Assembly: GCA_000002445.1 (NCBI GenBank) | Contig: CM000208.1 | Location: forward strand, 2,624,001-2,688,000 | DNA length: 64,000 nt | Source: Trypanosoma brucei | Lineage: Eukaryota | Reading direction: 5' to 3' | Part shown: piece by piece, positions 7,857 through 58,449 of the stretch | Position numbering within the stretch: position 1 is the stretch's first letter | Layout: the number at the start of each line of letters is the position of its first letter | The notes under the pieces: model-generated | The model's database searches: none | Seen by the model: the letters and a program-made list of their open reading frames with translations, nothing else | Told to the model about the DNA's origin: nothing | Translations under genes and position numbers: made by a program

Positions 7857-10094
7857 TTAATCAAATTCTTCAACATCTAAACCTACTAATGCTTCACCAC
7901 CCTCAGGTGCCACTGCCTCAGGTTGTGCTTCTGCAGGAACTTGCTGTGGCTCTTCAAGCTCTTCAACTGCTTCCACTGCTATGTCACCCTCAGGTGCCGC
8001 TGCCTCAGGTTGTGCTTCTGCAGGAACTTGCTGTGGCTCTTCAAGCTCTTCAACTGCTTCCACTGCTATGTCACCCTCAGGTGCCGCTGCCTCAGGTTGT
8101 GCTTCTGCAGGAACTTGCTGTGGTTCTTCAAGCTCTTCAACTGCTTCCACTGCTATGTCACCCTCAGGTGCCGCTGCCTCAGGTTGTGCTTCTGCAGGAA
8201 CTTGCTGTGGCTCTTCAAGCTCTTCAACTGCTTCCACTGCTATGTCACCCTCAGGTGCCGCTGCCTCAGGTTGTGCTTCTGCAGGAACTTGCTGTGGTTC
8301 TTCAAGCTCTTCAAGTGCTTCCACTGCTATGTCACCCTCAGGTGCCGCTGCCTCAGGTTGTGCTTCTGCAGGAACTTGCTGTGGCTCTTCAAGCTCTTCA
8401 AGTGCTTCCACTGCTATGTCACCCTCAGGTGCCGCTGCCTCAGGTTGTGCTTCTGCAGGAACTTGCTGTGGCTCTTCAAGCTCTTCAACTGCTTCCACTG
8501 CTATGTCACCCTCAGGTGCCGCTGCCTCAGGTTGTGCTTCTGCAGGAACTTGCTGTGGCTCTTCAAGCTCTTCAACTGCTTCCACTGCTATGTCACCCTC
8601 AGGTGCCGCTGCCCCAGGTTGTGCTTCTGCAGGAACTTGCTGTGGCTCTTCAAGCTCTTCAACTGCTTCCACTGCTATGTCACCCTCAGGTGCCGCTGCC
8701 TCAGGTTGTGCTTCTGCAGGAACTTGCTGTGGCTCTTCAAGCTCTTCAACTGCTTCCACTGCTATGTCACCCTCAGGTGCCGCTGCCTCAGGTTGTGCTT
8801 CTGCAGGAACTTGCTGTGGCTCTTCAAGCTCTTCAACTGCTTCCACTGCTATGTCACCCTCAGGTGCCGCTGCCTCAGGTTGTGCTTCTGCAGGAACTTG
8901 CTGTGGTTCTTCAAGCTCTTCAAGTGCTTCCACTGCTATGTCACCCTCAGGTGCCGCTGCCCCAGGTTGTGCTTCTGCAGGAACTTGCTGTGGCTCTTCA
9001 AGCTCTTCAACTGCTTCCACTGCTATGTCACCCTCAGGTGCCGCTGCCTCAGGTTGTGCTTCTGCAGGAACTTGCTGTGGCTCTTCAAGCTCTTCAACTG
9101 CTTCCACTGCTATGTCACCCTCAGGTGCCGCTGCCTCAGGTTGTGCTTCTGCAGGAACTTGCTGTGGCTCTTCAAGCTCTTCAACTGCTTCCACTGCTAT
9201 GTCACCCTCAGGTGCCGCTGCCTCAGGTTGTGCTTCTGCAGGAACTTGCTGTGGTTCTTCAAGCTCTTCAAGTGCTTCCACTGCTATGTCACCCTCAGGT
9301 GCCGCTGCCTCAGGTTGTGCTTCTGCAGGAACTTGCTGTGGCTCTTCAAGCTCTTCAAGTCCTTCCACTGCTATGTCACCCTCAGGTTGTGCCTCAGGTT
9401 GTGCTTCTGCAGGAACTTGCTGTGGCTCTTCAAGCTCTTCAACTGCTTCCACTGCTATGTCACCCTCAGGTGCCGCTGCCTCAGGTTGTGCTTCTGCAGG
9501 AACTTGCTGTGGCTCTTCAAGCTCTTCAACTGCTTCCACTGCTATGTCACCCTCAGGTGCCGCTGCCTCAGGTTGTGCTTCTGCAGGAACTTGCTGTGGT
9601 TCTTCAAGCTCTTCAAGTGCTTCCACTGCTATGTCACCCTCAGGTGCCGCTGCCTCAGGTTGTGCCTCAGGTTGTGCTTCTGCAGGAACTTGCTGTGGCT
9701 CTTCAAGCTCTTCAAGTGCTTCCACTGCTATGTCACCCTCAGGTGCCGCTGCCTCAGGTTGTGCTTCTGCAGGAACTTGCTGTGGCTCTTCAAGCTCTTC
9801 AAGTGCTTCCACTGCTATGTCACCCTCAGGTGCCGCTGCCTCAGGTTGTGCCTCAGGTTGTGCTTCTGCAGGAACTTGCTGTGGTTCTTCAAGCTCTTCA
9901 AGTGCTTCCACTGCTATGTCACCCTCAGGTTGTGCCTCAGGTTGTGCTTCTGCAGGAACTTGCTGTGGCTCTTCAAGCTCTTCAAGTGCTTCCACTGCTA
10001 TGTCACCCTCAGGTGCCGCTGCCTCAGGTTGTGCCTCAGGTTGTGCTTCTGCAGGAACTTGCTGTGGCTCTTCAAGCTCTTCAACTGCTTCCAC
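7857..10094 (-). CDS. C-terminal part of the giant repeat protein: about 25 tandem 28/29/33-aa units (EELEEPQQVPAEAQPEAAAPEGDIAVEAL). It is out of frame with the upstream part because of indels at about 10.10-10.22 kb.
   Basis: ORF with no unique N-terminus. It has the same repeat as the 3' end of ORF 10189..15138. The M at 10094 is internal to a repeat. Confidence 0.65.
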   Translation of the reverse strand: MEAVEELEEPQQVPAEAQPEAQPEAAAPEGDIAVEALEELEEPQQVPAEAQPEAQPEGDIAVEALEELEEPQQVPAEAQPEAQPEAAAPEGDIAVEALEELEEPQQVPAEAQPEAAAPEGDIAVEALEELEEPQQVPAEAQPEAQPEAAAPEGDIAVEALEELEEPQQVPAEAQPEAAAPEGDIAVEAVEELEEPQQVPAEAQPEAAAPEGDIAVEAVEELEEPQQVPAEAQPEAQPEGDIAVEGLEELEEPQQVPAEAQPEAAAPEGDIAVEALEELEEPQQVPAEAQPEAAAPEGDIAVEAVEELEEPQQVPAEAQPEAAAPEGDIAVEAVEELEEPQQVPAEAQPEAAAPEGDIAVEAVEELEEPQQVPAEAQPGAAAPEGDIAVEALEELEEPQQVPAEAQPEAAAPEGDIAVEAVEELEEPQQVPAEAQPEAAAPEGDIAVEAVEELEEPQQVPAEAQPEAAAPEGDIAVEAVEELEEPQQVPAEAQPGAAAPEGDIAVEAVEELEEPQQVPAEAQPEAAAPEGDIAVEAVEELEEPQQVPAEAQPEAAAPEGDIAVEALEELEEPQQVPAEAQPEAAAPEGDIAVEALEELEEPQQVPAEAQPEAAAPEGDIAVEAVEELEEPQQVPAEAQPEAAAPEGDIAVEAVEELEEPQQVPAEAQPEAAAPEGDIAVEAVEELEEPQQVPAEAQPEAAAPEGDIAVEAVEELEEPQQVPAEAQPEAVAPEGGEALVGLDVEEFD

Positions 10095-11615
10095 TGCTAT
10101 GTCACCCTCAGGTTGTGCCTCAGGTTGTGCAGGTGTGCTTCTGCAGGAACTTGCTGTGGTTCTTCAAGCTCTTCAAGTGCTTCCACTGCTATGTCACCCT
10201 CAGGTTCGCTGCCTCAGGTTGTGCTTCTGCAGGAACTTGCTGTGGTTCTTCAAGCTCTTCAAGTGCTTCCACTGCTATGTCACCCTCAGGTGCCGCTGCC
10301 TCAGGTTGTGCTTCTGCAGGAACTTGCTGTGGCTCTTCAAGCTCTTCAAGTGCTTCCACTGCTATGTCACCCTCAGGTGCCGCTGCCTCAGGTTGTGCCT
10401 CAGGTTGTGCTTCTGCAGGAACTTGCTGTGGCTCTTCAAGCTCTTCAAGTGCTTCCACTGCTATGTCACCCTCAGGTGCCGCTGCCTCAGGTTGTGCCTC
10501 AGGTTGTGCTTCTGCAGGAACTTGCTGTGGTTCTTCAAGCTCTTCAAGTGCTTCCACTGCTATGTCACCCTCAGGTGCCGCTGCCTCAGGTTGTGCCTCA
10601 GGTTGTGCTTCTGCAGGAACTTGCTGTGGCTCTTCAAGCTCTTCAACTGCTTCCACTGCTATGTCACCCTCAGGTTGTGCCTCAGGTTGTGCTTCTGCAG
10701 GAACTTGCTGTGGCTCTTCAAGCTCTTCAAGTGCTTCCACTGCTATGTCACCCTCAGGTGCCGCTGCCTCAGGTTGTGCCTCAGGTTGTGCTTCTGCAGG
10801 AACTTGCTGTGGTTCTTCAAGCTCTTCAAGTGCTTCCACTGCTATGTCACCCTCAGGTGCCGCTGCCTCAGGTTGTGCCTCAGGTTGTGCTTCTGCAGGA
10901 ACTTGCTGTGGCTCTTCAAGCTCTTCAACTGCTTCCACTGCTATGTCACCCTCAGGTTGTGCCTCAGGTTGTGCTTCTGCAGGAACTTGCTGTGGCTCTT
11001 CAAGCTCTTCAAGTGCTTCCACTGCTATGTCACCCTCAGGTGCCGCTGCCTCAGGTTGTGCCTCAGGTTGTGCTTCTGCAGGAACTTGCTGTGGCTCTTC
11101 AAGCTCTTCAAGTGCTTCCACTGCTATGTCACCCTCAGGTGCCGCTGCCTCAGGTTGTGCCTCAGGTTGTGCTTCTGCAGGAACTTGCTGTGGCTCTTCA
11201 AGCTCTTCAACTGCTTCCACTGCTATGTCACCCTCAGGTTGTGCCTCAGGTTGTGCTTCTGCAGGAACTTGCTGTGGCTCTTCAAGCTCTTCAAGTGCTT
11301 CCACTGCTATGTCACCCTCAGGTGCCGCTGCCTCAGGTTGTGCCTCAGGTTGTGCTTCTGCAGGAACTTGCTGTGGCTCTTCAAGCTCTTCAACTGCTTC
11401 CACTGCTATGTCACCCTCAGGTGCCGCTGCCTCAGGTTGTGCCTCAGGTTGTGCTTCTGCAGGAACTTGCTGTGGCTCTTCAAGCTCTTCAAGTGCTTCC
11501 ACTGCTATGTCACCCTCAGGTTGTGCCTCAGGTTGTGCTTCTGCAGGAACTTGCTGTGGCTCTTCAAGCTCTTCAACTGCTTCCACTGCTATGTCACCCT
11601 CAGGTGCCGCTGCCT
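7860..11615. repeat. Tandem array of 84/87/99-nt coding repeats (28/29/33 aa), about 40 copies
   Basis: Direct reading. The unit ...atgtcaccctcaggtgccgctgcctcaggttgtgc[ctcaggttgtgc]ttctgcaggaacttgctgtggctcttcaagctcttcaa(c/g)tgcttccactgct recurs with 87-nt spacing (for example 7921 to 8008). Variants carry a 12-nt insertion (99 nt) or a 3-nt deletion (84 nt). Confidence 0.95.
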
Positions 11616-14600
11616 CAGGCTGCGCAATGTCAAGCTCCTTTTGATCTTCAGGCTCAAGTGTCTGAATCACCTCAAGCTGCGCAATGTCAAGCTCCTTTTG
11701 ATCTTCAGGCTCGAGTGTCTGAATCACCTCAGGCTGCGCAATGTCAAGCTCCTTTTGATCTTCAGGCTCAAGTGTCTGAATCACCTCAGGCTGCGCAATG
11801 TCAAGCTCCTTTTGATCTTCAGGCTCGAGTGTCTGAATGACCTCAGGCTGCGCAATGTCAAGCTCCTTTTGATCCTCAGGTTCAAGTGTCTGAATCACCT
11901 CAGGCTGCGCAATGTCAAGCTCCTTTTGATCTTCAGGCTCGGGTGTCTGAATCACCTCAGGCTGCGCAATGTCAAGCTCCTTTTGATCTTCAGGCTCGAG
12001 TGTCTGAATCACCTCAGGCTGCGCAATGTCAAGCTCCTTTTGATCTTCAGGCTCAAGTGTCTGAATCACCTCAGGCTGCGCAATGTCAAGCTCCTTTTGA
12101 TCTTCAGGCTCGGGTGTCTGAATCACCTCAGGCTGCGCAATGTCAAGCTCCTTTTGATCTTCAGGCTCGAGTGTCTGAATCACCTCAGGCTGCGCAATGT
12201 CAAGCTCCTTTTGATCTTCAGGCTCAAGTGTCTGAATCACCTCAGGCTGCGCAATTTCAAGCTCCTTTTGATCTTCAGGCTCAAGTGTCTGAATCACCTC
12301 AGGCTGCGCAATGTCAAGCTCCTTTTGATCTTCAGGCTCGAGTGTCTGAATCACCTCAGGCTGCGCAATGTCAAGCTCCTTTTGATCTTCAGGTTCAAGT
12401 GTCTGAATCACCTCAGGCTGCGCAATGTCAAGCTCCTTTTGATCTTCAGGCTCGAGTGTCTGAATCACCTCAGGCTGCGCAATGTCAAGCTCCTTTTGAT
12501 CTTCCGGCTCAAGTGTCTGAATCACCTCAGGCTGCGCAATGTCAAGCTCCTTTTGATCTTCAGGCTCAAGTGTCTGAATCACCTCAGGCTGCGCAATGTC
12601 AAGCTCCTTTTGATCTTCAGGCTCAAGTGTCTGAATCACCTCAGGCTGCGCAATGTCAAGCTCCTTTTGATCTTCAGGCTCAAGTGTCTGAATCACCTCA
12701 GGCTGCGCAATGTCAAGCTCCTTTTGATCTTCAGGCTCAAGTGTCTGAATCACCTCAGGCTGCGCAATGTCAAGCTCCTTTTGATCTTCAGGCTCAAGTG
12801 TCTGAATCACCTCAAGCTGCGCAATGTCAAGCTCCTTTTGATCTTCAGGCTCAAGTGTCTGAATCACCTCAGGCTGCGCAATGTCAAGCTCCTTTTGATC
12901 TTCAGGCTCGGGTGTCTGAATCACCTCAGGCTGCGCAATGTCAAGCTCCTTTTGATCTTCAGGCTCAAGTGTCTGAATCACCTCAGGCTGCGCAATGTCA
13001 AGCTCCTTTTGATCTTCAGGCTCGAGTGTCTGAATGACCTCAGGCTGCGCAATGTCAAGCTCCTTTTGATCCTCAGGTTCAAGTGTCTGAATCACCTCAG
13101 GCTGCGCAATGTCAAGCTCCTTTTGATCTTCAGGCTCGGGTGTCTGAATCACCTCAGGCTGCGCAATGTCAAGCTCCTTTTGATCTTCAGGCTCAAGTGT
13201 CTGAATCACCTCAGGCTGCGCAATGTCAAGCTCCTTTTGATCTTCAGGCTCAAGTGTCTGAATCACCTCAGGCTGCGCAATTTCAAGCTCCTTTTGATCT
13301 TCAGGCTCAAGTGTCTGAATCACCTCAGGCTGCGCAATGTCAAGCTCCTTTTGATCTTCAGGCTCAAGTGTCTGAATCACCTCAGGCTGCGCAATGTCAA
13401 GCTCCTTTTGATCTTCAGGCTCAAGTGTCTGAATCACCTCAGGCTGCGCAATGTCAAGCTCCTTTTGATCTTCAGGCTCGAGTGTCTGAATCACCTCAGG
13501 CTGCGCAATGTCAAGCTCCTTTTGATCTTCAGGCTCAAGTGTCTGAATCACCTCAGGCTGCGCAATGTCAAGCTCCTTTTGATCTTCAGGCTCAAGTGTC
13601 TGAATCACCTCAGGCTGCGCAATGTCAAGCTCCTTTTGATCTTCAGGCTCGAGTGTCTGAATCACCTCAGGCTGCGCAATGTCAAGCTCCTTTTGATCTT
13701 CAGGTTCAAGTGTCTGAATCACCTCAGGCTGCGCAATGTCAAGCTCCTTTTGATCTTCAGGTTCAAGCTTTTTGAATGCAATTTTCTCTGTATGTTCACG
13801 CTCCTTTTTTTTGTTTTCTTGTGTGATTTCTTCTTGATGATCGTTTGTTTTTAATTTTTCTTTTTGTGGTTTATTTTCTTTTGGGAGTTGAACTTCTTGG
13901 GGATCTTGGTTTGTGGTCGAGTCCTGTTTTTTTAGTTGTGGTTGGTGCCACTGCTGCTGCTCGGCTGTTTCATGAGCGTGAGCAAAACTTTTTTTCGGGT
14001 CAAGTATTTTGGTGTTTTGAGGCAGTGATTGCCTTTTTTGATTTGCTTCTTTACATGTTTGTTTTTTACTAATTGTTTCAGTTAGTGGCGTTTGGGCACT
14101 GCTGATGCGTGCCTCCTTAGCTTTGAGGTATATCGTCCTTCTCTCCATTTCTTGAAGGATGTCACCTCTGTTGATTTGTTCATTTTTTTCCATTCGTTGG
14201 CGTAATTTGCCTTCATCTTCAACCACGCCAACTACCTTCTTTAGTTCATGAAACGCCTCTTGCAGTAGAAGGTATGACCTTCGCAGGTCTACCATGATTT
14301 CCATGTAACTGAAGTAATGCTTTGTGTCAAGTGCTATTCTTTCTTGTATATTTTTCTGATACTGCCTCTCAACAAGCCGTTGGCGCTGTTTGGCGTGCAT
14401 ATCCCTCAGAACTTGTCTGTGAGTTTCACTGCGCTGTTTGTCTTTAATATCCAACGTTTCGCGCGTTTTGGCACTTATGTGTTCATATTTTTCCTTTGAT
14501 ATTCGGTCAATAGTCTCCTGCACTTTTGGCAAGAGAGTATCGAGCATGCGGTCAATGCGGCGTAGGGTGCGGTTGCGTTCGTTTTCTTCCTTTTTCCGAA

Positions 14601-15138
14601 TCCTCGCAGAAACCTCCTTGTCTAACTCATGCTGTGTTTTGTCATGGTCGTATTTTGTTAGCACCTGCTGTAGGCGTGAAGACCGCCATAGTCTAATATT
14701 ACTGTCAATTTGCGCGATTTCCTCCTCAATTGAAGGACTGTCATTAACAATGTGTCGTTGACTAAAAAAAACAGAGTTTAACACAGGTTGCCCGGCATCA
14801 GGAAGGGACTTGCTCACCTCTGTATAAAACGTCATATCGTGCATTGCATCACTAACCAACAACCCCTTAGCCACATCATCTGCTGCTGCAGCGCCGGCGT
14901 ACACGGACGGTCCTTTCGGACGCCGGAAAGAGGAGAGGGGGAGATAATCCGGCTTTGAGGGTTTGGCAGGGATCTTCAATTGCTTGCTATCGACCTCTGT
15001 GCTGACTTGCTCCAGTAGTGGTTCTGCAACCGTCGACGTTGTTGTAGGTTGCTCCTTGGCCTGCTCCTGAGGCGATCTCCCCTCGCCTGGGGAATTATTA
15101 TACATTGCTACTGCTGTTGCTATTTTCCCCCTTTCCAC
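10189..15138 (-). CDS. Giant repetitive protein, N-terminal 1649 aa. A unique charged, coiled-coil-like domain of about 450 aa is followed by about 38 copies of a 19-aa repeat (LEPEDQKELDIAQPEVIQT), then in-frame 28/33-aa repeats.
   Basis: Long ORF with a unique N-terminal region (15138 to about 13780) and a seamless in-frame junction between the two repeat types at about 11.62-11.64 kb. Together with 7857..10094 it would encode about 2400 aa. Confidence 0.8.
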   Translation of the reverse strand: MERGKIATAVAMYNNSPGEGRSPQEQAKEQPTTTSTVAEPLLEQVSTEVDSKQLKIPAKPSKPDYLPLSSFRRPKGPSVYAGAAAADDVAKGLLVSDAMHDMTFYTEVSKSLPDAGQPVLNSVFFSQRHIVNDSPSIEEEIAQIDSNIRLWRSSRLQQVLTKYDHDKTQHELDKEVSARIRKKEENERNRTLRRIDRMLDTLLPKVQETIDRISKEKYEHISAKTRETLDIKDKQRSETHRQVLRDMHAKQRQRLVERQYQKNIQERIALDTKHYFSYMEIMVDLRRSYLLLQEAFHELKKVVGVVEDEGKLRQRMEKNEQINRGDILQEMERRTIYLKAKEARISSAQTPLTETISKKQTCKEANQKRQSLPQNTKILDPKKSFAHAHETAEQQQWHQPQLKKQDSTTNQDPQEVQLPKENKPQKEKLKTNDHQEEITQENKKKEREHTEKIAFKKLEPEDQKELDIAQPEVIQTLEPEDQKELDIAQPEVIQTLEPEDQKELDIAQPEVIQTLEPEDQKELDIAQPEVIQTLEPEDQKELDIAQPEVIQTLEPEDQKELDIAQPEVIQTLEPEDQKELDIAQPEVIQTLEPEDQKELDIAQPEVIQTLEPEDQKELEIAQPEVIQTLEPEDQKELDIAQPEVIQTLEPEDQKELDIAQPEVIQTPEPEDQKELDIAQPEVIQTLEPEDQKELDIAQPEVIQTLEPEDQKELDIAQPEVIQTLEPEDQKELDIAQPEVIQTPEPEDQKELDIAQPEVIQTLEPEDQKELDIAQLEVIQTLEPEDQKELDIAQPEVIQTLEPEDQKELDIAQPEVIQTLEPEDQKELDIAQPEVIQTLEPEDQKELDIAQPEVIQTLEPEDQKELDIAQPEVIQTLEPEDQKELDIAQPEVIQTLEPEDQKELDIAQPEVIQTLEPEDQKELDIAQPEVIQTLEPEDQKELDIAQPEVIQTLEPEDQKELEIAQPEVIQTLEPEDQKELDIAQPEVIQTLEPEDQKELDIAQPEVIQTPEPEDQKELDIAQPEVIQTLEPEDQKELDIAQPEVIQTLEPEDQKELDIAQPEVIQTPEPEDQKELDIAQPEVIQTLEPEDQKELDIAQPEVIQTLEPEDQKELDIAQPEVIQTLEPEDQKELDIAQPEVIQTLEPEDQKELDIAQLEVIQTLEPEDQKELDIAQPEAAAPEGDIAVEAVEELEEPQQVPAEAQPEAQPEGDIAVEALEELEEPQQVPAEAQPEAQPEAAAPEGDIAVEAVEELEEPQQVPAEAQPEAQPEAAAPEGDIAVEALEELEEPQQVPAEAQPEAQPEGDIAVEAVEELEEPQQVPAEAQPEAQPEAAAPEGDIAVEALEELEEPQQVPAEAQPEAQPEAAAPEGDIAVEALEELEEPQQVPAEAQPEAQPEGDIAVEAVEELEEPQQVPAEAQPEAQPEAAAPEGDIAVEALEELEEPQQVPAEAQPEAQPEAAAPEGDIAVEALEELEEPQQVPAEAQPEAQPEGDIAVEAVEELEEPQQVPAEAQPEAQPEAAAPEGDIAVEALEELEEPQQVPAEAQPEAQPEAAAPEGDIAVEALEELEEPQQVPAEAQPEAQPEAAAPEGDIAVEALEELEEPQQVPAEAQPEAAAPEGDIAVEALEELEEPQQVPAEAQPEAANLRVT
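11615..13775. repeat. Tandem array of a 57-nt coding repeat (19 aa), about 38 copies, highly homogenised
   Basis: Direct reading. ttgatcttcaggctcaagtgtctgaatcacctcaggctgcgcaatgtcaagctcctt repeats with exact 57-nt period; only a few point variants (caa/cgg/cga, gtc/ttc). Confidence 0.95.
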
Positions 15139-47557: not shown

Positions 47558-48042
47558 AGATGCCTTAGGGGTAAAGGGTCTTCCTTTGGTCTGAAGTCGT
47601 ACTATTTCGCGCCGCTACCTCGCTTCGCTCCACATACGAGAAAAAGTGGCGGAGAGTTTTTTCCCACCAGTGAAATTACAAACGGTAAGCGATCAGCTAC
47701 GGGGTGACTAACATTTATTTACGGGTGGCTGCCGTGGAGATGCTTATGCATCCTTATTCTCTGGGTGTTCACCTTCCTTTCAGCCCATTTTATGTGGGCG
47801 TGAGCCCTGTGCACCTGCCTGCAGTGGCACCAGTGTCGATTGCGCAAACCATCATCCAACTTACCAGTGAGTTACACTTGGGATGCCACGGCTGGGAAGA
47901 GGTATCAACCCGCAATCATACCTGTGCAAAACGCGAAAGTCAAGTGGTTTTCCTTTTTTTTCTTAAAAAAAAAATGAAAGTCGCAGTAAGCAGGGGGGAG
48001 GGTTTAAACAGCCACTGCGGCTGCACCTTTTGGACGGAACGG

Positions 48043-48399
48043 CTAATTGGCAACATGGACCTCTGCGGACCGAGTGCTCGACATCATCGACAAGTGCTCT
48101 TTGAGCAGCTGAGAACGCTTAATGGTATACGCTCTTTTCGTACAATCCGGACAACAAGGGTTTCCCCTCAGCAGGTACCGCTCGGGACAACAATGAGTAC
48201 AAAATTGGCGACCGCACCAATCACAATTAGTGCTGGGAGTGAAGTAAAAACAGAATGGTTCTTCACACGACGAGCAGAAGCGGCCATCCCTGGGCCGAGC
48301 ACTTTCCGGAGCGGGTACATATGTTATTGGTTCTACTTTATCCTTCACTTCAGGAGGAACCTCTTCGTGTGTGCGAACGTTGCTAAAAATCGTGCCCAT
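48043..48399 (-). CDS. Small (118 aa) Cys-rich zinc-finger protein with an N-terminal myristoylation consensus (MGTIFSN)
   Basis: ORF on the array strand: MGxxxS start, Cys cluster CSSCEEPFCFYF...CDWCGRQFCTHCCPERY...CCPDC. The overlapping 262-aa plus-strand ORF 47704..48492 is judged spurious. Confidence 0.45.
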   Translation of the reverse strand: MGTIFSNVRTHEEVPPEVKDKVEPITYVPAPESARPRDGRFCSSCEEPFCFYFTPSTNCDWCGRQFCTHCCPERYLLRGNPCCPDCTKRAYTIKRSQLLKEHLSMMSSTRSAEVHVAN

Positions 48400-48533
48400 G
48401 ACAACAACCTAGAGCAGTACACCTACGGCCGCCGGGTCACAACGCCGGCGCAACAAGGGAAAGGCGATAGGAGGAACAAATGGCTCGTTTAGTCTGGTAT
48501 AATTAGAAGCAAAAAAAAAAGCTATGTGGACCT

Positions 48534-51377: not shown

Positions 51378-52811
51378 CTACACTGTAGGATTTGGTTGGG
51401 GGCAGGGCGCTTGCCCATAAGAGTGACCCTGTTGTTGCGGTGGTGGCGGTTGGCCGTAAGTATAGCCTCCTTGTGGTGGTGGCGGTTGGCCATACGTGTA
51501 CCCTTGTTGCGGTGGTGGCTTCCCATAAGTATACCCTCCTTGTTGCGGCGGTGGTGGTTGGCCATACGTGTGCCCTTGTTGCGGTGGTGGTGGTTGCCCA
51601 TAGGGATAACCTTGTTGTTGCGGCGGTGGTGGTTGCCCATAAAGGTAGCCCTGCTGCGGCAGTGGTTGGCCGTAGGCATAACCTGGTGGTGGTGGTGGTT
51701 GTGATTGTCCGTATGTATAAGGAGAGCCATCCCCCTGAGGTGTATCAGGATCACTCGTATCATTGGATGAAGAGCCCTTACGCTTCAGACAGAAGCAAAC
51801 TACACACACACACACGGCAATTTCCAGAAGAAGGAGCAGCGATCCGGCCACGATACAAGCGATTCCCATTGTCCGATTCGGAACGCCGAATTCACCCTCG
51901 CCCATCGTTTCACGCTCGAGTGCGATGAAAGGATCTCCCTCACTGTATAACTGCACCTGAACCTTATCCTGGGGTACCGCCTCGTATCCCTGGGACAGAT
52001 GTCCAAAACTGTACAACGCGCTCTGATATTGGGTACTTTCCCTGTACCCCCCTTTTCCATCGCTTGCAGCGACAAGATAGAGCTTGGACAAATACACTTC
52101 CTGCTTGCAGTAGCCGCACTTTTCACCCAACCGACATTTCGAGCTTTGAGTAGTGTATTGGCCACCTTGTGAATAGCACTTGTTCCTAAATTGCTCGTGC
52201 TTCTCTTGACAGTCACATTTTCTGGAATATCCAGAACATTGAGAAGAACTGCAGGAGAACCATCTCTCCCTTGTTGCATGAAGAGGTGACCTCCGCGTGA
52301 ACGGTGCGACGGTGTTAATGTTCACCTTCACTACCAGTTGGCTGCCATCGGTGTTACCGCTAACCGGGACGGTGGCTTCAGTGTAAACGGACGGTATCGG
52401 ACCAAAACCCGCGACGGACAGTGACTGCCGTCTGACGGTGGCCTTCACATCACTGAATGTTCCAGTCCAACTCTCCAGGGGCTTTGGGTCGAATGCACTC
52501 ACCGCCTTCTTGAAATTGTCACGAGGGTCGTCGCTGGAGAGGAAAAGTACGCCAACACCGATGAGGACAGGGCCTCCAATGAGGAGACAACATAGGCACG
52601 CAACCGCGGTCTTGAAGAATTCACCGACAGAGTGCACGAGCTGTTCGATGCACATGAAGCTTTTCCTTGCGACGGCGTTAGCTCTGCACAACGAGTAGGG
52701 AAGAAAGGTGAGAGTAGGGTTTGGCGGTGGAAGCACGCGCGCACACGCATAATCGAAACTTACAACTGAGCACACGAAAAAGCGAGTTACAAGCACAAAT
52801 TTGTCAACCAA
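51378..52811 (-). CDS. Membrane protein with a Cys-rich ectodomain, one TM helix (MGIACIVAGSLLLLLEIAVCVCVVCFCL) and a cytoplasmic tail of about 8 GYxYGQPPPPQQ repeats (Pro/Tyr/Gln-rich)
   Basis: ORF on the array strand. N-terminal signal-anchor-like segment. 12-aa imperfect repeats at the C-terminus (51378 to about 51700). The first repeat contains PPGY. Confidence 0.65.
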   Translation of the reverse strand: MVDKFVLVTRFFVCSVVSFDYACARVLPPPNPTLTFLPYSLCRANAVARKSFMCIEQLVHSVGEFFKTAVACLCCLLIGGPVLIGVGVLFLSSDDPRDNFKKAVSAFDPKPLESWTGTFSDVKATVRRQSLSVAGFGPIPSVYTEATVPVSGNTDGSQLVVKVNINTVAPFTRRSPLHATRERWFSCSSSQCSGYSRKCDCQEKHEQFRNKCYSQGGQYTTQSSKCRLGEKCGYCKQEVYLSKLYLVAASDGKGGYRESTQYQSALYSFGHLSQGYEAVPQDKVQVQLYSEGDPFIALERETMGEGEFGVPNRTMGIACIVAGSLLLLLEIAVCVCVVCFCLKRKGSSSNDTSDPDTPQGDGSPYTYGQSQPPPPPGYAYGQPLPQQGYLYGQPPPPQQQGYPYGQPPPPQQGHTYGQPPPPQQGGYTYGKPPPQQGYTYGQPPPPQGGYTYGQPPPPQQQGHSYGQAPCPQPNPTV

Positions 52812-55710: not shown

Positions 55711-58449
55711 TCAGTGCAGAGATGATGCTATATCAGAAAGATCATCCGCAAGTTCAGGGTATTTGTCGGTTAGCTCTCCTAGTATTTCGGCGAATGCCCT
55801 CCGTTTTTCGTTCAGTCTCGATGCCTCAGCTGCCGTATGCTTTAACTCTAGAGCGGACTTGTACGTTCCCTTCTCTGCGTCACGAATGCGCTGGAGACTC
55901 GAGTTCTTCGCGCGTCGCTCGTCCTCTAAACGGTCGTGTTCCTTTTGAGCGACAACAAGTTGTGAGCGAAGCTCGGAAATCTGTTCGTCAAGAGTGTCTA
56001 TTTCCCGCTGAACAGATTCTGCCTCGGCCGTTGTCTTCTCAATGGAAGCAAGACGTTCCTTGATCTGACGCTCTTTTAGCTGCGCCTCTTGTCTTTTTTC
56101 ATTTAACTCCTTAAACATCCTGGAACTTTCTTTTTCAATATCCATTCTCGTCACTCCCCGCTTGTTCACTTTGGCAGCCTCTTGGATCGCCTGGCCTTTT
56201 GCCCTGATGATCTCCCGATGATCAATTGACTTCTGCATTTCTTCAATTAAAAACCGCTGTTCACGCTGCAGGTGACTGACTCGCTGTTCCATGATCCCAA
56301 TCTCTTTTCTCATTTTCTCTACTTCTGCTTTACCAACCGAAGGATCTAACGCCATCTCAGTTTCTTTAGCAACTTGCATTTTCCTCTCCCAAAACAATAT
56401 ATCACTTTCATGATTCATAATTTGTTCAAGGAGTTCGGTTTTCGCCTGTCTAGCTTCCTCCACCTTTTGCTCAAGCACGATCGCCTCACGCTTTTTTTCC
56501 TGGAGTCTACGAATGAGATCATTCTCGAGAAGAAACGCTTCGTTGGCAACGTTCTTCTGATCATCGGAATTTTTGCAAAGTTGAGTGTTTACCCGTTTCA
56601 TCTCTAGGTGCATGGCATTCGCCTTGTTTTCGAGGTTTGCAATGTCCTTTTTCTCGTTTGATATATTTACTAGAAGTCGATCCCTTTTTTGTGTTAGTAC
56701 AGTGCTCTGGGCCTGGAGCTCAAGAATCGCTTCGTTCACTTCATTTGAATTGTTTTTACAGTTAACCAACTCTGTTTGCAGTTTTATCCATTCCTGTTGG
56801 AGAGCCTCATTTTCATTGACTTTTTCCGCAATTGCTTTTGAAAGACTGTTAATGGTGGCCTCCAGGGGCCCTACGTGTTCCCCCTTGTCGGCGCCATAAG
56901 CAGCGACAAGTTGTTCATACTGGTGGTTGAGTTGGTCTAGTTGTTTTTGCTTCCTGTCGATCTCGTCGTGTCGACGGTGAATGTCCATTTGCATGCGTTC
57001 GACCATCAGGCCACGAGCTTGTAGCTCCTTTTCGAGATCGCCCAATGTGGTTTTCAGGGTCTCATTATGTGACTGAGCCTGCAGTGTGTCCACACGAATG
57101 CGAGCAAGTTCGTTCTCCATTTGTGCCACTTGAAGCTCCTTGGATCTAATGGAGCCTTTCATTTTTTCGATATCACTCAACGTACCGTGGCACTCTTGTT
57201 TCAGTGAGGACTGCTTACCAAGTGACTCGAGTATGTCATTTTCCATCAGGACCACCTCCTTAGAAACCTTCAACATCTTCTTCTCGATATCGGCAGCTTC
57301 GGTAGAGTATGTTCTTGCCTCGTATTCCAGCTTTTTGGCTTCTGCATCTGTTTGTTCAATATTATCCTTCAGCATCACGTATTCACGTGCGCCTTTCTCC
57401 TTTCTTTCCACAAGGACATCGATCTGCTTCCCTAGAACGGTAACTTCGTTGTCAACTCGAGACATGAATTCAGCCAATTTGGCAGTCTCTGCTTGAACGC
57501 CTTTAATGTCTTTCCTTGTCCCAATTATCTCGTTCTCGAGCACTTGTAGCTCATCTTTCTGCTGTTGCAGTGCCTCTTCTGTCTTTTTCATGGCTTCGTG
57601 ACGCCGTTGCATCCCAATGAGCGTACCCTTCCACTGTTGAACTAATTGTTTTTTTTCAAAATTAATTGCCTCCATTTCTGCCAAAGCTTCAGCTAATATT
57701 TCCCGAGCCTTCTGGGTTTCCCTTTGCTGGTTCTCGACCTGGGAGTTAACCGTGGATATTTCTTCTTCTAGCAGAACAACACGTTTCTCCAAAGAATCTA
57801 TAAGGTTGTCTTGCTTCAACTTTTCCTTCTCCAAGTTGGTTATATCTTCCTCTGTTTTGAAAGCAGCACGGCGCTCCACTTGAACTTCGTTTTTGAGTTG
57901 TTCATTAAACTGTTGGACTTTCACTAATGTTTCAGTAAGCTTTAAAAGATCCGCCTGCTGACGTTCGTATTGTCGTTGCTGGTCCTCAATGTTTTTCCGA
58001 AGTGTGTCTGCCTGCGCAGCAAGTTCCTCTCGTTCTTGAAGCTTTTCCTCGTGTTTTTGCTTTGTTGCGAGGTGCTTTTCATGGCATTTCTCAAGAGTTT
58101 CCTGCAACTTGGCAAGGTGTTGCTGGGAATTGTAAAGCTCAACACCGCATTGCTCCCTTTCTTTCTGAGCCTTAGATAATTCATTCTTTACTTCATAGAT
58201 CTGCTGCATGACCTCTTCCAGATGCTGTCGAAGTTGCGCTTCAATGCGCTTCTGGACCGGTGCGAGCACCGCAGATTCCGGGTCCAGGTCGGAAACATCG
58301 CTTGCAACATCGTATGGTACGTCGGACATAGATTCTCCTGCGGAATAACTGTAGTGAGCAAGATCAGTTGTGAAAAAAGCACAAATAAAGGTACACGCAC
58401 AAAAAAAAAGGAAAGCAAAAAAAAAAAAAAAAGAGCATAGTCGATACAT
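55711..58449 (-). CDS. Long coiled-coil protein, about 870 aa. True start probably MSDVPYDV with ATG at 58327-58329; the track start at 58449 translates the upstream pyrimidine tract.
   Basis: Heptad-like, Glu/Lys/Gln/Leu-rich sequence throughout. A purine-rich plus-strand tract at 58370-58440 lies immediately upstream of the MSDV start. Confidence 0.7.
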   Translation of the reverse strand: MYRLCSFFFFFAFLFFCACTFICAFFTTDLAHYSYSAGESMSDVPYDVASDVSDLDPESAVLAPVQKRIEAQLRQHLEEVMQQIYEVKNELSKAQKEREQCGVELYNSQQHLAKLQETLEKCHEKHLATKQKHEEKLQEREELAAQADTLRKNIEDQQRQYERQQADLLKLTETLVKVQQFNEQLKNEVQVERRAAFKTEEDITNLEKEKLKQDNLIDSLEKRVVLLEEEISTVNSQVENQQRETQKAREILAEALAEMEAINFEKKQLVQQWKGTLIGMQRRHEAMKKTEEALQQQKDELQVLENEIIGTRKDIKGVQAETAKLAEFMSRVDNEVTVLGKQIDVLVERKEKGAREYVMLKDNIEQTDAEAKKLEYEARTYSTEAADIEKKMLKVSKEVVLMENDILESLGKQSSLKQECHGTLSDIEKMKGSIRSKELQVAQMENELARIRVDTLQAQSHNETLKTTLGDLEKELQARGLMVERMQMDIHRRHDEIDRKQKQLDQLNHQYEQLVAAYGADKGEHVGPLEATINSLSKAIAEKVNENEALQQEWIKLQTELVNCKNNSNEVNEAILELQAQSTVLTQKRDRLLVNISNEKKDIANLENKANAMHLEMKRVNTQLCKNSDDQKNVANEAFLLENDLIRRLQEKKREAIVLEQKVEEARQAKTELLEQIMNHESDILFWERKMQVAKETEMALDPSVGKAEVEKMRKEIGIMEQRVSHLQREQRFLIEEMQKSIDHREIIRAKGQAIQEAAKVNKRGVTRMDIEKESSRMFKELNEKRQEAQLKERQIKERLASIEKTTAEAESVQREIDTLDEQISELRSQLVVAQKEHDRLEDERRAKNSSLQRIRDAEKGTYKSALELKHTAAEASRLNEKRRAFAEILGELTDKYPELADDLSDIASSLH

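What the first reader, a model, noticed from the sequence alone, without database searches (positions are those of the whole stretch)
9350..11615. Higher-order periodicity inside the 28/33-aa array: S-L-L supra-repeat versus a homogenised 29-aa block
From about 9.35 to 11.6 kb the units alternate strictly as 84-nt (EAQPEAQPEGD), 99-nt (EAQPEAQPEAAAPEGD), 99-nt, giving a 282-nt/94-aa higher-order repeat. From 7.86 to 9.35 kb the array is almost purely the 87-nt unit (EAQPEAAAPEGD). This block structure is a footprint of unequal crossing-over and gene conversion acting on different unit sizes, and it marks two sub-domains of the array with separate amplification histories.
Basis: seen in the sequence. 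Interest (0 to 1): 0.55.

Follow-up and report, generated by a model that had tools for sequence, protein, structure and literature searches.

The report
Nested repeats in trypanosome flagellar antigen gene
The 282-base "repeat of repeats" is real but only about half as long as claimed, and it is an ordinary by-product of repeat shuffling in the acidic tail of a Trypanosoma brucei flagellar antigen gene.

Summary
The window is Trypanosoma brucei-group chromosome 10. The region lies on the minus strand, in the C-terminal repeat tail of a large flagellar/paraflagellar-rod antigen gene, probably TbI17.

**Observation: partly confirmed**
- An 84-99-99 (S-L-L) supra-repeat of 282 nt exists, but only for units 1-12 (11592→10465). 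TRF gives 4.4 copies, 99% matches and 0% indels at 10386-11619.
- From 10464 to 9375 the order is irregular (99, 87, 86, 92, 99, 84, 99, 87, 99, 87, 87, 84). Identity at lag 282 falls to 0.37 there.
- The 87-nt block is confirmed: 17 units, 9374→7896. It holds a nested exact duplication of four units (348 nt), so it is not simply homogenised.
- Units 15 and 16 (10278-10101) carry indels that split the gene into two ORFs. I suspect a consensus error in the assembly.

**Interpretation: partly supported**
- The three unit sizes are combinations of two modules, AQPE (12 nt) and AAAPE (15 nt), each ending in CCTGAGG.
- Multi-unit blocks have been amplified by out-of-register exchange or slippage.
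- A T. equiperdum assembly shows a differently organised array, and orthologues in other trypanosomes have unrelated repeats or none.

This is ordinary tandem-repeat dynamics and of low interest.

The parts
7857..15105 (-). Whole gene for a large repetitive flagellar/paraflagellar-rod antigen, probably TbI17. It reads as two ORFs: 10189..15105 (1638 aa from the first ATG, 184 kDa) and 7857..10094 (745 aa). If the frameshift were repaired the product would be about 2415 aa.
   Evidence: ORF list and translations. The N-terminal 442 aa are 98% identical to T. b. equiperdum 'paraflagellar rod protein', and 45-55% identical to 'putative flagellar antigen' of other Trypanosoma. All ORFs of 250 aa or more outside the repeat region are on the minus strand except one of 262 aa (47704..48492), so this is one polycistronic unit.
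13768..15105 (-). Unique, basic N-terminal region (446 aa, pI 9.2). Its conserved core at about residues 49-330 is predicted to be long antiparallel helices.
   Evidence: Alignment of 11 Trypanosoma orthologues with 61 invariant columns. AlphaFold2 gives helices 126-205, 212-286 and 298-337; pLDDT is about 90 or more over most of the first two helices and 79-85 over the third. No Pfam, PDB-sequence or Foldseek match.
11613..13767 (-). Upstream array of 38 units of 57 nt (19 aa, LEPEDQKELDIAQPEVIQT). It contains a degenerate super-repeat of about 21 units (1197 nt).
   Evidence: TRF: period 57, 37.8 copies, 97% matches. Variant string ABCCBCCCDCEFGCECHCCCCIBABCDBECBEFGCBHJ. Lag 1197 gives the best autocorrelation and a 283-nt exact run.
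10465..11592 (-). S-L-L higher-order repeat: units 1-12, that is four copies of (84+99+99 = 282 nt, 94 aa). TRF extends the 282-nt periodicity to 10386-11619 (4.4 copies).
9375..10464 (-). Irregular transition zone, units 13-24. All three unit sizes are mixed and there is no 282-nt period.
   Evidence: Unit lengths 99, 87, 86, 92, 99, 84, 99, 87, 99, 87, 87, 84. Lag-282 identity is 0.37.
10101..10278 (-). Two adjacent aberrant units: unit 15 (86 nt) and unit 16 (92 nt). Their indels shift the reading frame, and a stop follows at 10189-10191.
   Evidence: Unit sequences and translation ...EAQPEAANLRVT*. They are the only 2 of the 79 repeat units (38 + 41) with a length not divisible by three. 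Unit 15 reads GCAGCG|AACCTGAGG, which looks like an M-type start joined to an S-type end.
7896..9374 (-). Homogeneous block of 17 units of 87 nt (29 aa, ...EAQPEAAAPEGD).
   Evidence: Lag-87 identity is 0.984.
8577..9309 (-). Nested duplication inside the 87-nt block: units 26-29 are identical to units 30-33 (4 x 87 = 348 nt).
   Evidence: Zero differences between the two four-unit blocks. A 385-nt exact run at lag 348.
7857..7895 (-). Short non-repeat C-terminal tail (GEALVGLDVEEFD) and the stop codon.
   Evidence: Translation of ORF 7857..10094 and the end of unit 41.

Best explanation
The region is the C-terminal coding minisatellite of a Trypanosoma brucei flagellar cytoskeleton antigen. 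A conserved basic coiled-coil N-terminal domain carries a very long, highly acidic tail rich in Glu, Ala, Pro and Gln.

**How the unit sizes arise**
- The units are built from two short modules, each ending in CCTGAGG: a = GCACAACCTGAG (AQPE) and b = GCAGCGGCACCTGAG (AAAPE).
- S = a-a (84 nt), M = a-b (87 nt), L = a-a-b (99 nt).
- Mispairing at the CCTGAGG microhomology, by slippage or short-register unequal exchange, creates the three sizes.

**How the blocks arise**
- Out-of-register homologous exchange or slippage then copies whole runs of units.
- One such event series amplified an S-L-L trimer to about four copies. The last two copies are still identical, so this is recent.
- Others amplified M units, including a four-unit block.
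- The irregular stretch in between is what was not homogenised. Part of it may be mis-assembled.

**Consequence for the protein**
The 94-aa supra-repeat is a record of DNA turnover, not a protein structural unit. At protein level it only changes linker length by 4-5 residues per unit.

**Shown:** unit anatomy, periodicities, block identities, difference between strains, and that the expansion is specific to this lineage.
**Inferred:** the recombination or slippage mechanism, the disordered or spacer nature of the tail, and the flagellar location.
For: - Unit parsing and sequences.
- 282-nt period with 99% matches and no indels.
- Autocorrelation and longest exact runs at lags 282, 348 and 1197.
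- Permutation test, 21 of 100,000.
- The junction between the 57-nt and 87-nt arrays lies at the same CCTGAGG motif (unit J).
- All four combinations of the two 5' variant sites exist, and each variant occurs with several unit lengths.
- T. equiperdum IVM-t1 has at least 46 units of a different composition.
- Synteny is conserved, but the tails differ: no repeats in T. vivax, 3 x 30 nt in T. theileri, a few 30/88-nt repeats in T. cruzi, 13 x 12 aa in T. congolense.
- Tail composition is 27% Glu, 23% Ala and 14% Pro, with pI 4.05, against pI 9.2 for the N-terminal region.
Against: - Only one high-quality sequence of the array is available.
- The comparator assembly is rich in errors and has a 100-N gap exactly where the S-L-L block would lie. 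The supra-repeat therefore has no independent confirmation.
- Two frameshifted units sit about 190 nt downstream of the supra-repeat block, so the assembly is not perfect here.
- The mechanism is inferred from the pattern alone.
Confidence: 0.75

Rival explanations
1. The block organisation is partly or wholly an assembly or polishing artefact. Long tandem arrays, especially two alleles of different structure in a diploid, can be collapsed or mis-registered. The unit order, and above all the irregular zone, might not exist in the cell.
For: - Units 15 and 16 are adjacent and are the only two of 79 units with lengths out of frame.
- Their sequences look like mixtures of unit types, for example GCAGCG|AACCTGAGG.
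- The T. equiperdum PacBio assembly of the same locus is full of such indels and has a gap.
- An Illumina assembly (T. equiperdum OVI) stops 613 nt short of the array.
- No T. brucei protein covering this gene other than a truncated 340-aa model was found.
Against: - The window has no N, and every other large ORF is intact.
- The 38 units of 57 nt and the other 39 units of this array are all in frame.
- The supra-repeat copies differ by coherent single-base variants (0, 1 and 3-4 nt), which is not what a collapse looks like.
Confidence: 0.15
2. The frameshift at 10101-10278 is real. The gene, or this allele of it, then encodes a truncated 1638-aa (184 kDa) protein, and the downstream 26 units (including the whole 87-nt block) are an untranslated relic evolving neutrally.
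For: - The stop codon lies 7 codons after the 1-nt deletion.
- The two indels do not compensate: 86 + 92 = 178 nt.
- ORF1 alone gives 184 kDa. This fits the '>180 kDa' size class of the serum-selected antigens I2 and I17 (PMC2813431).
Against: - The downstream 745 codons remain a perfect open frame ending in a proper non-repeat tail and stop. All 25 units there are in frame.
- That is unexpected for a neutral relic, unless the frameshift is very recent or homogenisation keeps the units in frame.
Confidence: 0.25
3. The 94-aa S-L-L period is a functional protein unit maintained by selection, for example a structural ruler that matches a periodicity of the flagellar lattice.
For: The period is very regular over four copies. 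Proteins of the paraflagellar rod and its connectors sit in periodic lattices (general knowledge; review PMC2813431).
Against: - There are only four copies.
- The rest of the same array uses other orders.
- The assembled part of the T. equiperdum array has no 99-nt units.
- Orthologues in other species have unrelated repeats or none.
- The AlphaFold2 model of the repeats has low confidence (mean pLDDT 55.5).
- The near identity of the copies points to recent duplication, not long conservation.
Confidence: 0.03

Closest known systems
TbI17 (I17), a high-molecular-weight repetitive flagellar antigen of T. brucei (Imboden et al. 1995; listed as Tb10.26.0960 in the review PMC2813431)
   Same: - A chromosome-10 gene of the T. 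brucei group.
- A very large repetitive protein: 184 kDa for the first ORF, about 265 kDa if repaired.
- Orthologues in T. cruzi and other Trypanosoma, and none recovered from Leishmania. The review likewise reports a T. cruzi orthologue but none in Leishmania.
- The T. equiperdum orthologue is annotated 'paraflagellar rod protein'.
   Different: - Identity is not proven. I could not obtain the I17 cDNA sequence or the 1995 paper.
- I could not map Tb10.26.0960 to this locus.
- I did not find the T. cruzi accession XP_811780 among the members of the two T. cruzi clusters I listed.
Higher-order repeats in tandem arrays, as in primate alpha-satellite, and variable coding minisatellites such as mucins, yeast FLO adhesins and trypanosome MARP, GM6 or CRAM (comparison from general knowledge)
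   Same: - A multimer of distinguishable monomers is repeated in tandem.
- Identity between multimers (99%) is much higher than between neighbouring monomers.
- Nested periods are present (87/348, 57/1197).
- Organisation differs between strains.
   Different: - The array is small: four copies, 1.2 kb.
- It lies inside a protein-coding frame, so every unit length is a multiple of three.
- The monomers differ mainly by 12- and 15-nt module indels, not by point divergence.
Paraflagellar rod proteins with the PFR domain (PFR1, PFR2, PFR5, PAR1, Tb5.20; Pfam PF05149)
   Same: Annotated as a paraflagellar rod protein in one genome. Tb5.20 is also repetitive (PMC2645819).
   Different: There is no Pfam match at all, including PF05149, at E <= 0.1. 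Tb5.20 is on chromosome 11 (Tb11.01.6740), so it is a different gene.

Membership tests
Higher-order repeat (HOR) tandem array | A unit made of two or more distinguishable monomers is itself repeated head to tail at least three times. | tested here: met
   84-99-99 repeated four times (units 1-12). TRF gives period 282 and 4.4 copies.
Higher-order repeat (HOR) tandem array | Identity between HOR copies exceeds identity between adjacent monomers. | tested here: met
   Identity is 0.96 at lag 282, against 0.76 at lag 99 and 0.59 at lag 84. The copies differ by 0-4 nt in 282.
   Units 13-24 (10464-9375) are irregular, with lag-282 identity of 0.37.
TbI17 flagellar repetitive antigen | High-molecular-weight (>180 kDa) tandem-repeat protein of T. 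brucei. | tested here: met
   184 kDa for ORF1 and about 2415 aa if repaired. 98% identity to a T. b. equiperdum protein.
TbI17 flagellar repetitive antigen | Orthologue present in T. cruzi and absent from Leishmania. | tested here: met
   All 11 hits are Trypanosoma or an unnamed run assembly, and none is Leishmania. The review makes the same statement.
TbI17 flagellar repetitive antigen | Sequence identity to the I17 cDNA, or to gene Tb10.26.0960. | not testable with these tools
   The paper is not held. The ID searches were unproductive. The search with the repeat protein returned nothing.
TbI17 flagellar repetitive antigen | Location between the paraflagellar rod and the axoneme. | not testable with these tools
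   This needs immunolocalisation or tagging.
PFR-domain paraflagellar rod proteins (PF05149) | Presence of the PFR domain. | tested here: not met
   No Pfam family at E <= 0.1 for the N-terminal region or the repeats.

The most novel reading that the evidence does not exclude
Both the unit order and the frameshift could be real. The locus would then be a hypervariable, allele-specific coding minisatellite caught in the act, with a 282-nt trimer currently being amplified and one allele truncated to 184 kDa. It would serve as a sensitive strain and lineage marker for the T. brucei group. It would also be a natural case where the length of a flagellar connector protein's tail varies by about 80 kDa without loss of function.
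Probability: 0.2. Interest if true: 0.3.

Novelty: new member of a known kind. Interest (0 to 1): 0.2.

Why it matters
Mostly for housekeeping.
- It shows how this repetitive antigen gene is built and that its array turns over quickly between T. brucei-group strains. That bears on its use as a diagnostic antigen or typing marker.
- It flags a probable assembly or annotation problem: a frameshift splits a 2,400-codon gene.
- It does not reveal a new kind of element or mechanism.

Tried and rejected
- **Protein search with the repeat region.** 8000 candidates, none significant. The likely cause is HMMER's correction for biased composition. No database protein with these repeats, such as an I17 fragment, could be recovered.
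- **Exact look-ups of window proteins.** The 1638-aa ORF and the 684-aa neighbour are not on record. The 483-aa and 196-aa neighbours are found only on a T. equiperdum OVI contig that ends 613 nt before the array. The source strain is therefore not identified, and no second good copy of the array is available.
- **Mapping TbI17 (Tb10.26.0960) to a Tb927.10 identifier through the literature.** Unproductive. Tb927.10.10940-10980 turned up almost only in HSP83/HSP90 and heat-shock papers, and appear to be HSP83 copies rather than this gene.
- **Imboden et al. 1995.** Not held in the library.
- **Cluster listing of the T. cruzi hits.** It did not show XP_811780.
- **Pfam, PDB sequence search and Foldseek on the N-terminal domain.** Nothing.
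- **AlphaFold2 on 317 aa of repeats without an alignment.** It gave a low-confidence beta-solenoid-like model (pLDDT 55.5), which I treat as uninformative.
- **Long plus-strand ORFs across the array (1251-1957 aa).** Rejected as artefacts of stop-free repeats. Outside the repeat region, all ORFs of 250 aa or more but one (262 aa, 47704..48492) are on the minus strand.
Full report
**What the sequence is**

Every ORF of 250 aa or more that lies outside the repeat region is on the minus strand, apart from one of 262 aa at 47704..48492. That is the pattern of a trypanosomatid polycistronic unit.

The repeat region lies in a minus-strand gene. Its unique N-terminal 442 aa are 98% identical to a T. 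brucei equiperdum protein annotated 'paraflagellar rod protein'. They are 45-55% identical to 'putative flagellar antigen' or hypothetical proteins of T. congolense, T. vivax, T. theileri, T. melophagium, T. cruzi, T. conorhini and T. rangeli.

Gene order is conserved in T. equiperdum, T. cruzi, T. vivax and T. theileri: photolyase, a roughly 700-aa gene, this gene, a roughly 480-aa gene, a roughly 200-aa gene, a roughly 310-aa gene.

The window is therefore chromosome 10 of a T. brucei-group trypanosome. The long plus-strand ORFs over the array are artefacts of stop-free repeats.

**Gene anatomy**

Read on the minus strand, the gene has four parts:
- A basic unique region of 446 aa (pI 9.2), at 15105-13768.
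- 38 units of 57 nt (19 aa, LEPEDQKELDIAQPEVIQT), at 13767-11613.
- 41 units of 84, 87 or 99 nt (28, 29 or 33 aa), at 11592-7896. A partial unit precedes them.
- A 13-residue tail and the stop codon, at 7895-7857.

The repeat tails are extremely acidic: pI 4.05, with 27% Glu, 23% Ala and 14% Pro.

The conserved core of the N-terminal region (61 invariant columns among 11 orthologues) is predicted to be three long helices, 126-205, 212-286 and 298-337. pLDDT is about 90 or more over most of the first two helices and 79-85 over the third. It has no Pfam, PDB-sequence or Foldseek relative.

**Checking the observation**

I split the minus strand at the invariant 13-mer ATAGCAGTGGAAG. The unit lengths fall into three zones:

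| Units | Coordinates | Lengths (nt) |
|---|---|---|
| 1-12 | 11592→10465 | 84, 99, 99 repeated four times |
| 13-24 | 10464→9375 | 99, 87, 86, 92, 99, 84, 99, 87, 99, 87, 87, 84 |
| 25-41 | 9374→7896 | 17 units of 87 |

The S-L-L supra-repeat is real:
- TRF on 10380-11680 reports period 282, 4.4 copies, 99% matches and no indels. This is its highest-scoring period there.
- Identity at lag 282 is 0.96, against 0.76 at lag 99.
- The longest exact self-match in the whole 6-kb repeat region is 427 nt at lag 282.
- Copies 3 and 4 are identical. Copy 2 differs from them by 1 nt. Copy 1 differs by 4 nt from them and 3 nt from copy 2.
- In 100,000 shuffles of the 24 units upstream of the 87-nt block, a mixed period-3 run at least as long appeared 21 times.

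The alternation is not 'strict from 9.35 to 11.6 kb'. It stops at about 10.4 kb, and lag-282 identity in 9375-10465 is 0.37.

The pure 87-nt block is as described. It also contains an exact duplication of four units: units 26-29 equal units 30-33, a 348-nt period with a 385-nt exact run.

The upstream 57-nt array shows a degenerate super-repeat of about 21 units, with lag 1197 as the best lag. Nested periodicity is thus a general property of this gene's arrays.

**Anatomy of the unit sizes**

The three sizes differ only at the 3' end of the unit. They are combinations of two modules:
- a = GCACAACCTGAG (AQPE)
- b = GCAGCGGCACCTGAG (AAAPE)
- S = a-a, M = a-b, L = a-a-b

Both modules end in CCTGAGG. 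The 57-nt array is joined to this array at that same motif (…GCGCAGCCTGAGG|CAGCGGCACCTGAGGGTGAC). This makes CCTGAGG the recurrent breakpoint. From that I infer slippage or short-register unequal exchange at a microhomology as the source of the size variants.

Two variable sites lie in the 5' part of the unit: C/G at position 16 (Leu/Val) and G/A at position 33 (synonymous). They occur in all four combinations, and each allele at each site is found with all three unit lengths. Variants have therefore been shuffled between unit types. The two homogeneous blocks are not independent lineages from single founder units.

**A frameshift in the irregular zone**

- Unit 15 (10278-10193) is 86 nt and unit 16 (10192-10101) is 92 nt.
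- The frame is lost, and a stop follows after 7 codons (…EAQPEAANLRVT*).
- The remaining 745 codons continue open in another frame, down to the natural tail and stop.
- These are the only 2 of 79 repeat units that are out of frame. They are adjacent, and their sequences look like blends of unit types.
- Everything else in the window is clean: no N, and all other large ORFs intact.

I think a local consensus error, possibly from two alleles of different unit order, is more likely than a real truncation. This cannot be decided without reads.

**Comparison with other genomes**

The only other T. brucei-group copy I could reach is T. equiperdum IVM-t1 (L001).
- It is riddled with small indels and has a 100-N gap right after the 57-nt array.
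- After the gap it has at least 46 units. Most are 87-nt type, in both AAAPE and AVAPE versions. About 8 are 84-nt units. There is no convincing 99-nt unit.
- Nearly all units carry the Leu variant and most the GAA variant, and the Val variant is absent.
- In the window, AVAPE occurs only in the last unit, and Val is the most common variant in the 87-nt block.

The array is therefore organised differently in the two lineages. Whether the S-L-L block exists in T. equiperdum is hidden by the gap.

Beyond the T. brucei group the tail differs again:

| Species | Tail of the orthologue |
|---|---|
| T. congolense | 13 units of 12 aa (PEAHEAAEEGVE) |
| T. cruzi | a few 30/88-nt units (ELVAPAEDVQ-like) |
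| T. theileri | 3 units of 30 nt |
| T. vivax | none |

An acidic tail recurs in most orthologues (T. congolense, T. cruzi, T. theileri, T. conorhini). Its repeat sequence and length are specific to each lineage, and the huge expansion is specific to T. brucei.

**Most likely explanation**

This is a coding minisatellite evolving by ordinary tandem-repeat dynamics.
- Module-level mispairing at CCTGAGG makes the unit sizes.
- Multi-unit out-of-register exchange or slippage then amplifies blocks. An S-L-L trimer was amplified recently, and 87-nt units elsewhere.
- The 94-aa period is a historical footprint, not a protein domain. There are only four copies, the period is absent from the rest of the array and from the assembled part of the T. 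equiperdum array, and the structure prediction for the repeats is of low confidence.

By composition the tail is probably an extended acidic spacer and an immunodominant epitope array. It hangs on a coiled-coil anchor in the flagellar cytoskeleton. That part is inference.

**Relation to what is known**

The gene is probably TbI17. This is one of two high-molecular-weight repeat antigens isolated with infected-cattle serum. It was localised between the paraflagellar rod and the axoneme, assigned to Tb10.26.0960 on chromosome 10, and has a T. cruzi orthologue but none in Leishmania (review PMC2813431).

The size class, chromosome, annotation and phylogenetic distribution all fit. I could not compare sequences or map the identifier, so this remains probable rather than shown.

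It is not a PFR-domain protein, and it is not Tb5.20, which is on chromosome 11.

Higher-order periodicity in tandem arrays and length-variable coding minisatellites are well known. This is one more example.

**Verdict**

The 282-nt supra-repeat and the 87-nt block are real. The extent of the supra-repeat was overstated roughly twofold, and a third, irregular zone was missed.
- Interest is low.
- The practically useful by-product is the frameshift at 10101-10278, which should be checked against reads.

Noticed in passing
window 10101-10278 (minus strand): Two adjacent repeat units of 86 and 92 nt break the reading frame of a roughly 2400-codon gene, with a stop at 10189-10191. Their sequences look like blends of unit types, which suggests a consensus or polishing error or a mix of alleles.
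   Followed up: partly
window 11613-13767 (minus strand): The 38-unit, 57-nt array has its own degenerate super-repeat of about 21 units. Lag 1197 is the best lag, and the variant string ABCCBCCCDCEFGCECH...ABCDBECBEFGCBH shows two similar halves.
   Followed up: partly
window 8577-9309 (minus strand): Inside the 'homogenised' 87-nt block, four consecutive units (87b-87c-87c-87e) are duplicated exactly.
   Followed up: yes
window 11593-11650 (minus strand): The 57-nt array and the 84/87/99-nt array are joined at the CCTGAGG motif. The same motif bounds the 12- and 15-nt modules that distinguish the unit sizes. The two repeat families also share DIA and AQPE motifs and may be distantly related.
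   Followed up: partly
L001 11958-16100 (T. equiperdum IVM-t1, CM010681.1): The orthologous array there has a 100-N gap after only 11 units of 57 nt, and many 1-3-nt indels. The gene model is cut to 340 aa. Its 87-nt units are mostly Leu/GAA types, with frequent AVAPE, unlike the window.
   Followed up: partly
window 7889-13854 (plus strand): Three very long plus-strand ORFs (1251, 1305 and 1957 aa) run antisense through the arrays. They encode low-complexity Cys/Ser/Leu-rich strings and are artefacts of stop-free repeats, not genes.
   Followed up: yes
window 51378-52811 (minus strand), repeats at 51409-51666: This ORF appears to encode a membrane protein with a hydrophobic segment. It ends in about nine imperfect 12-aa repeats of the type PPPPQQGYTYGQ (36-nt period, 72-78% matches).
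   Followed up: no
window 55711-58449 (minus strand): A 912-aa ORF whose sequence looks almost entirely like heptad-rich coiled coil (Glu/Lys/Gln/Leu-rich). This explains the strong AT skew at 56-58 kb. No tandem repeat was found there with the TRF score threshold set at 100.
   Followed up: no
L004-L007 (T. cruzi, T. vivax, T. theileri loci): Synteny around the antigen gene is conserved across Trypanosoma. The repeat tail ranges from none (T. vivax) to a few units, so the 6-kb expansion is specific to the T. brucei lineage.
   Followed up: partly
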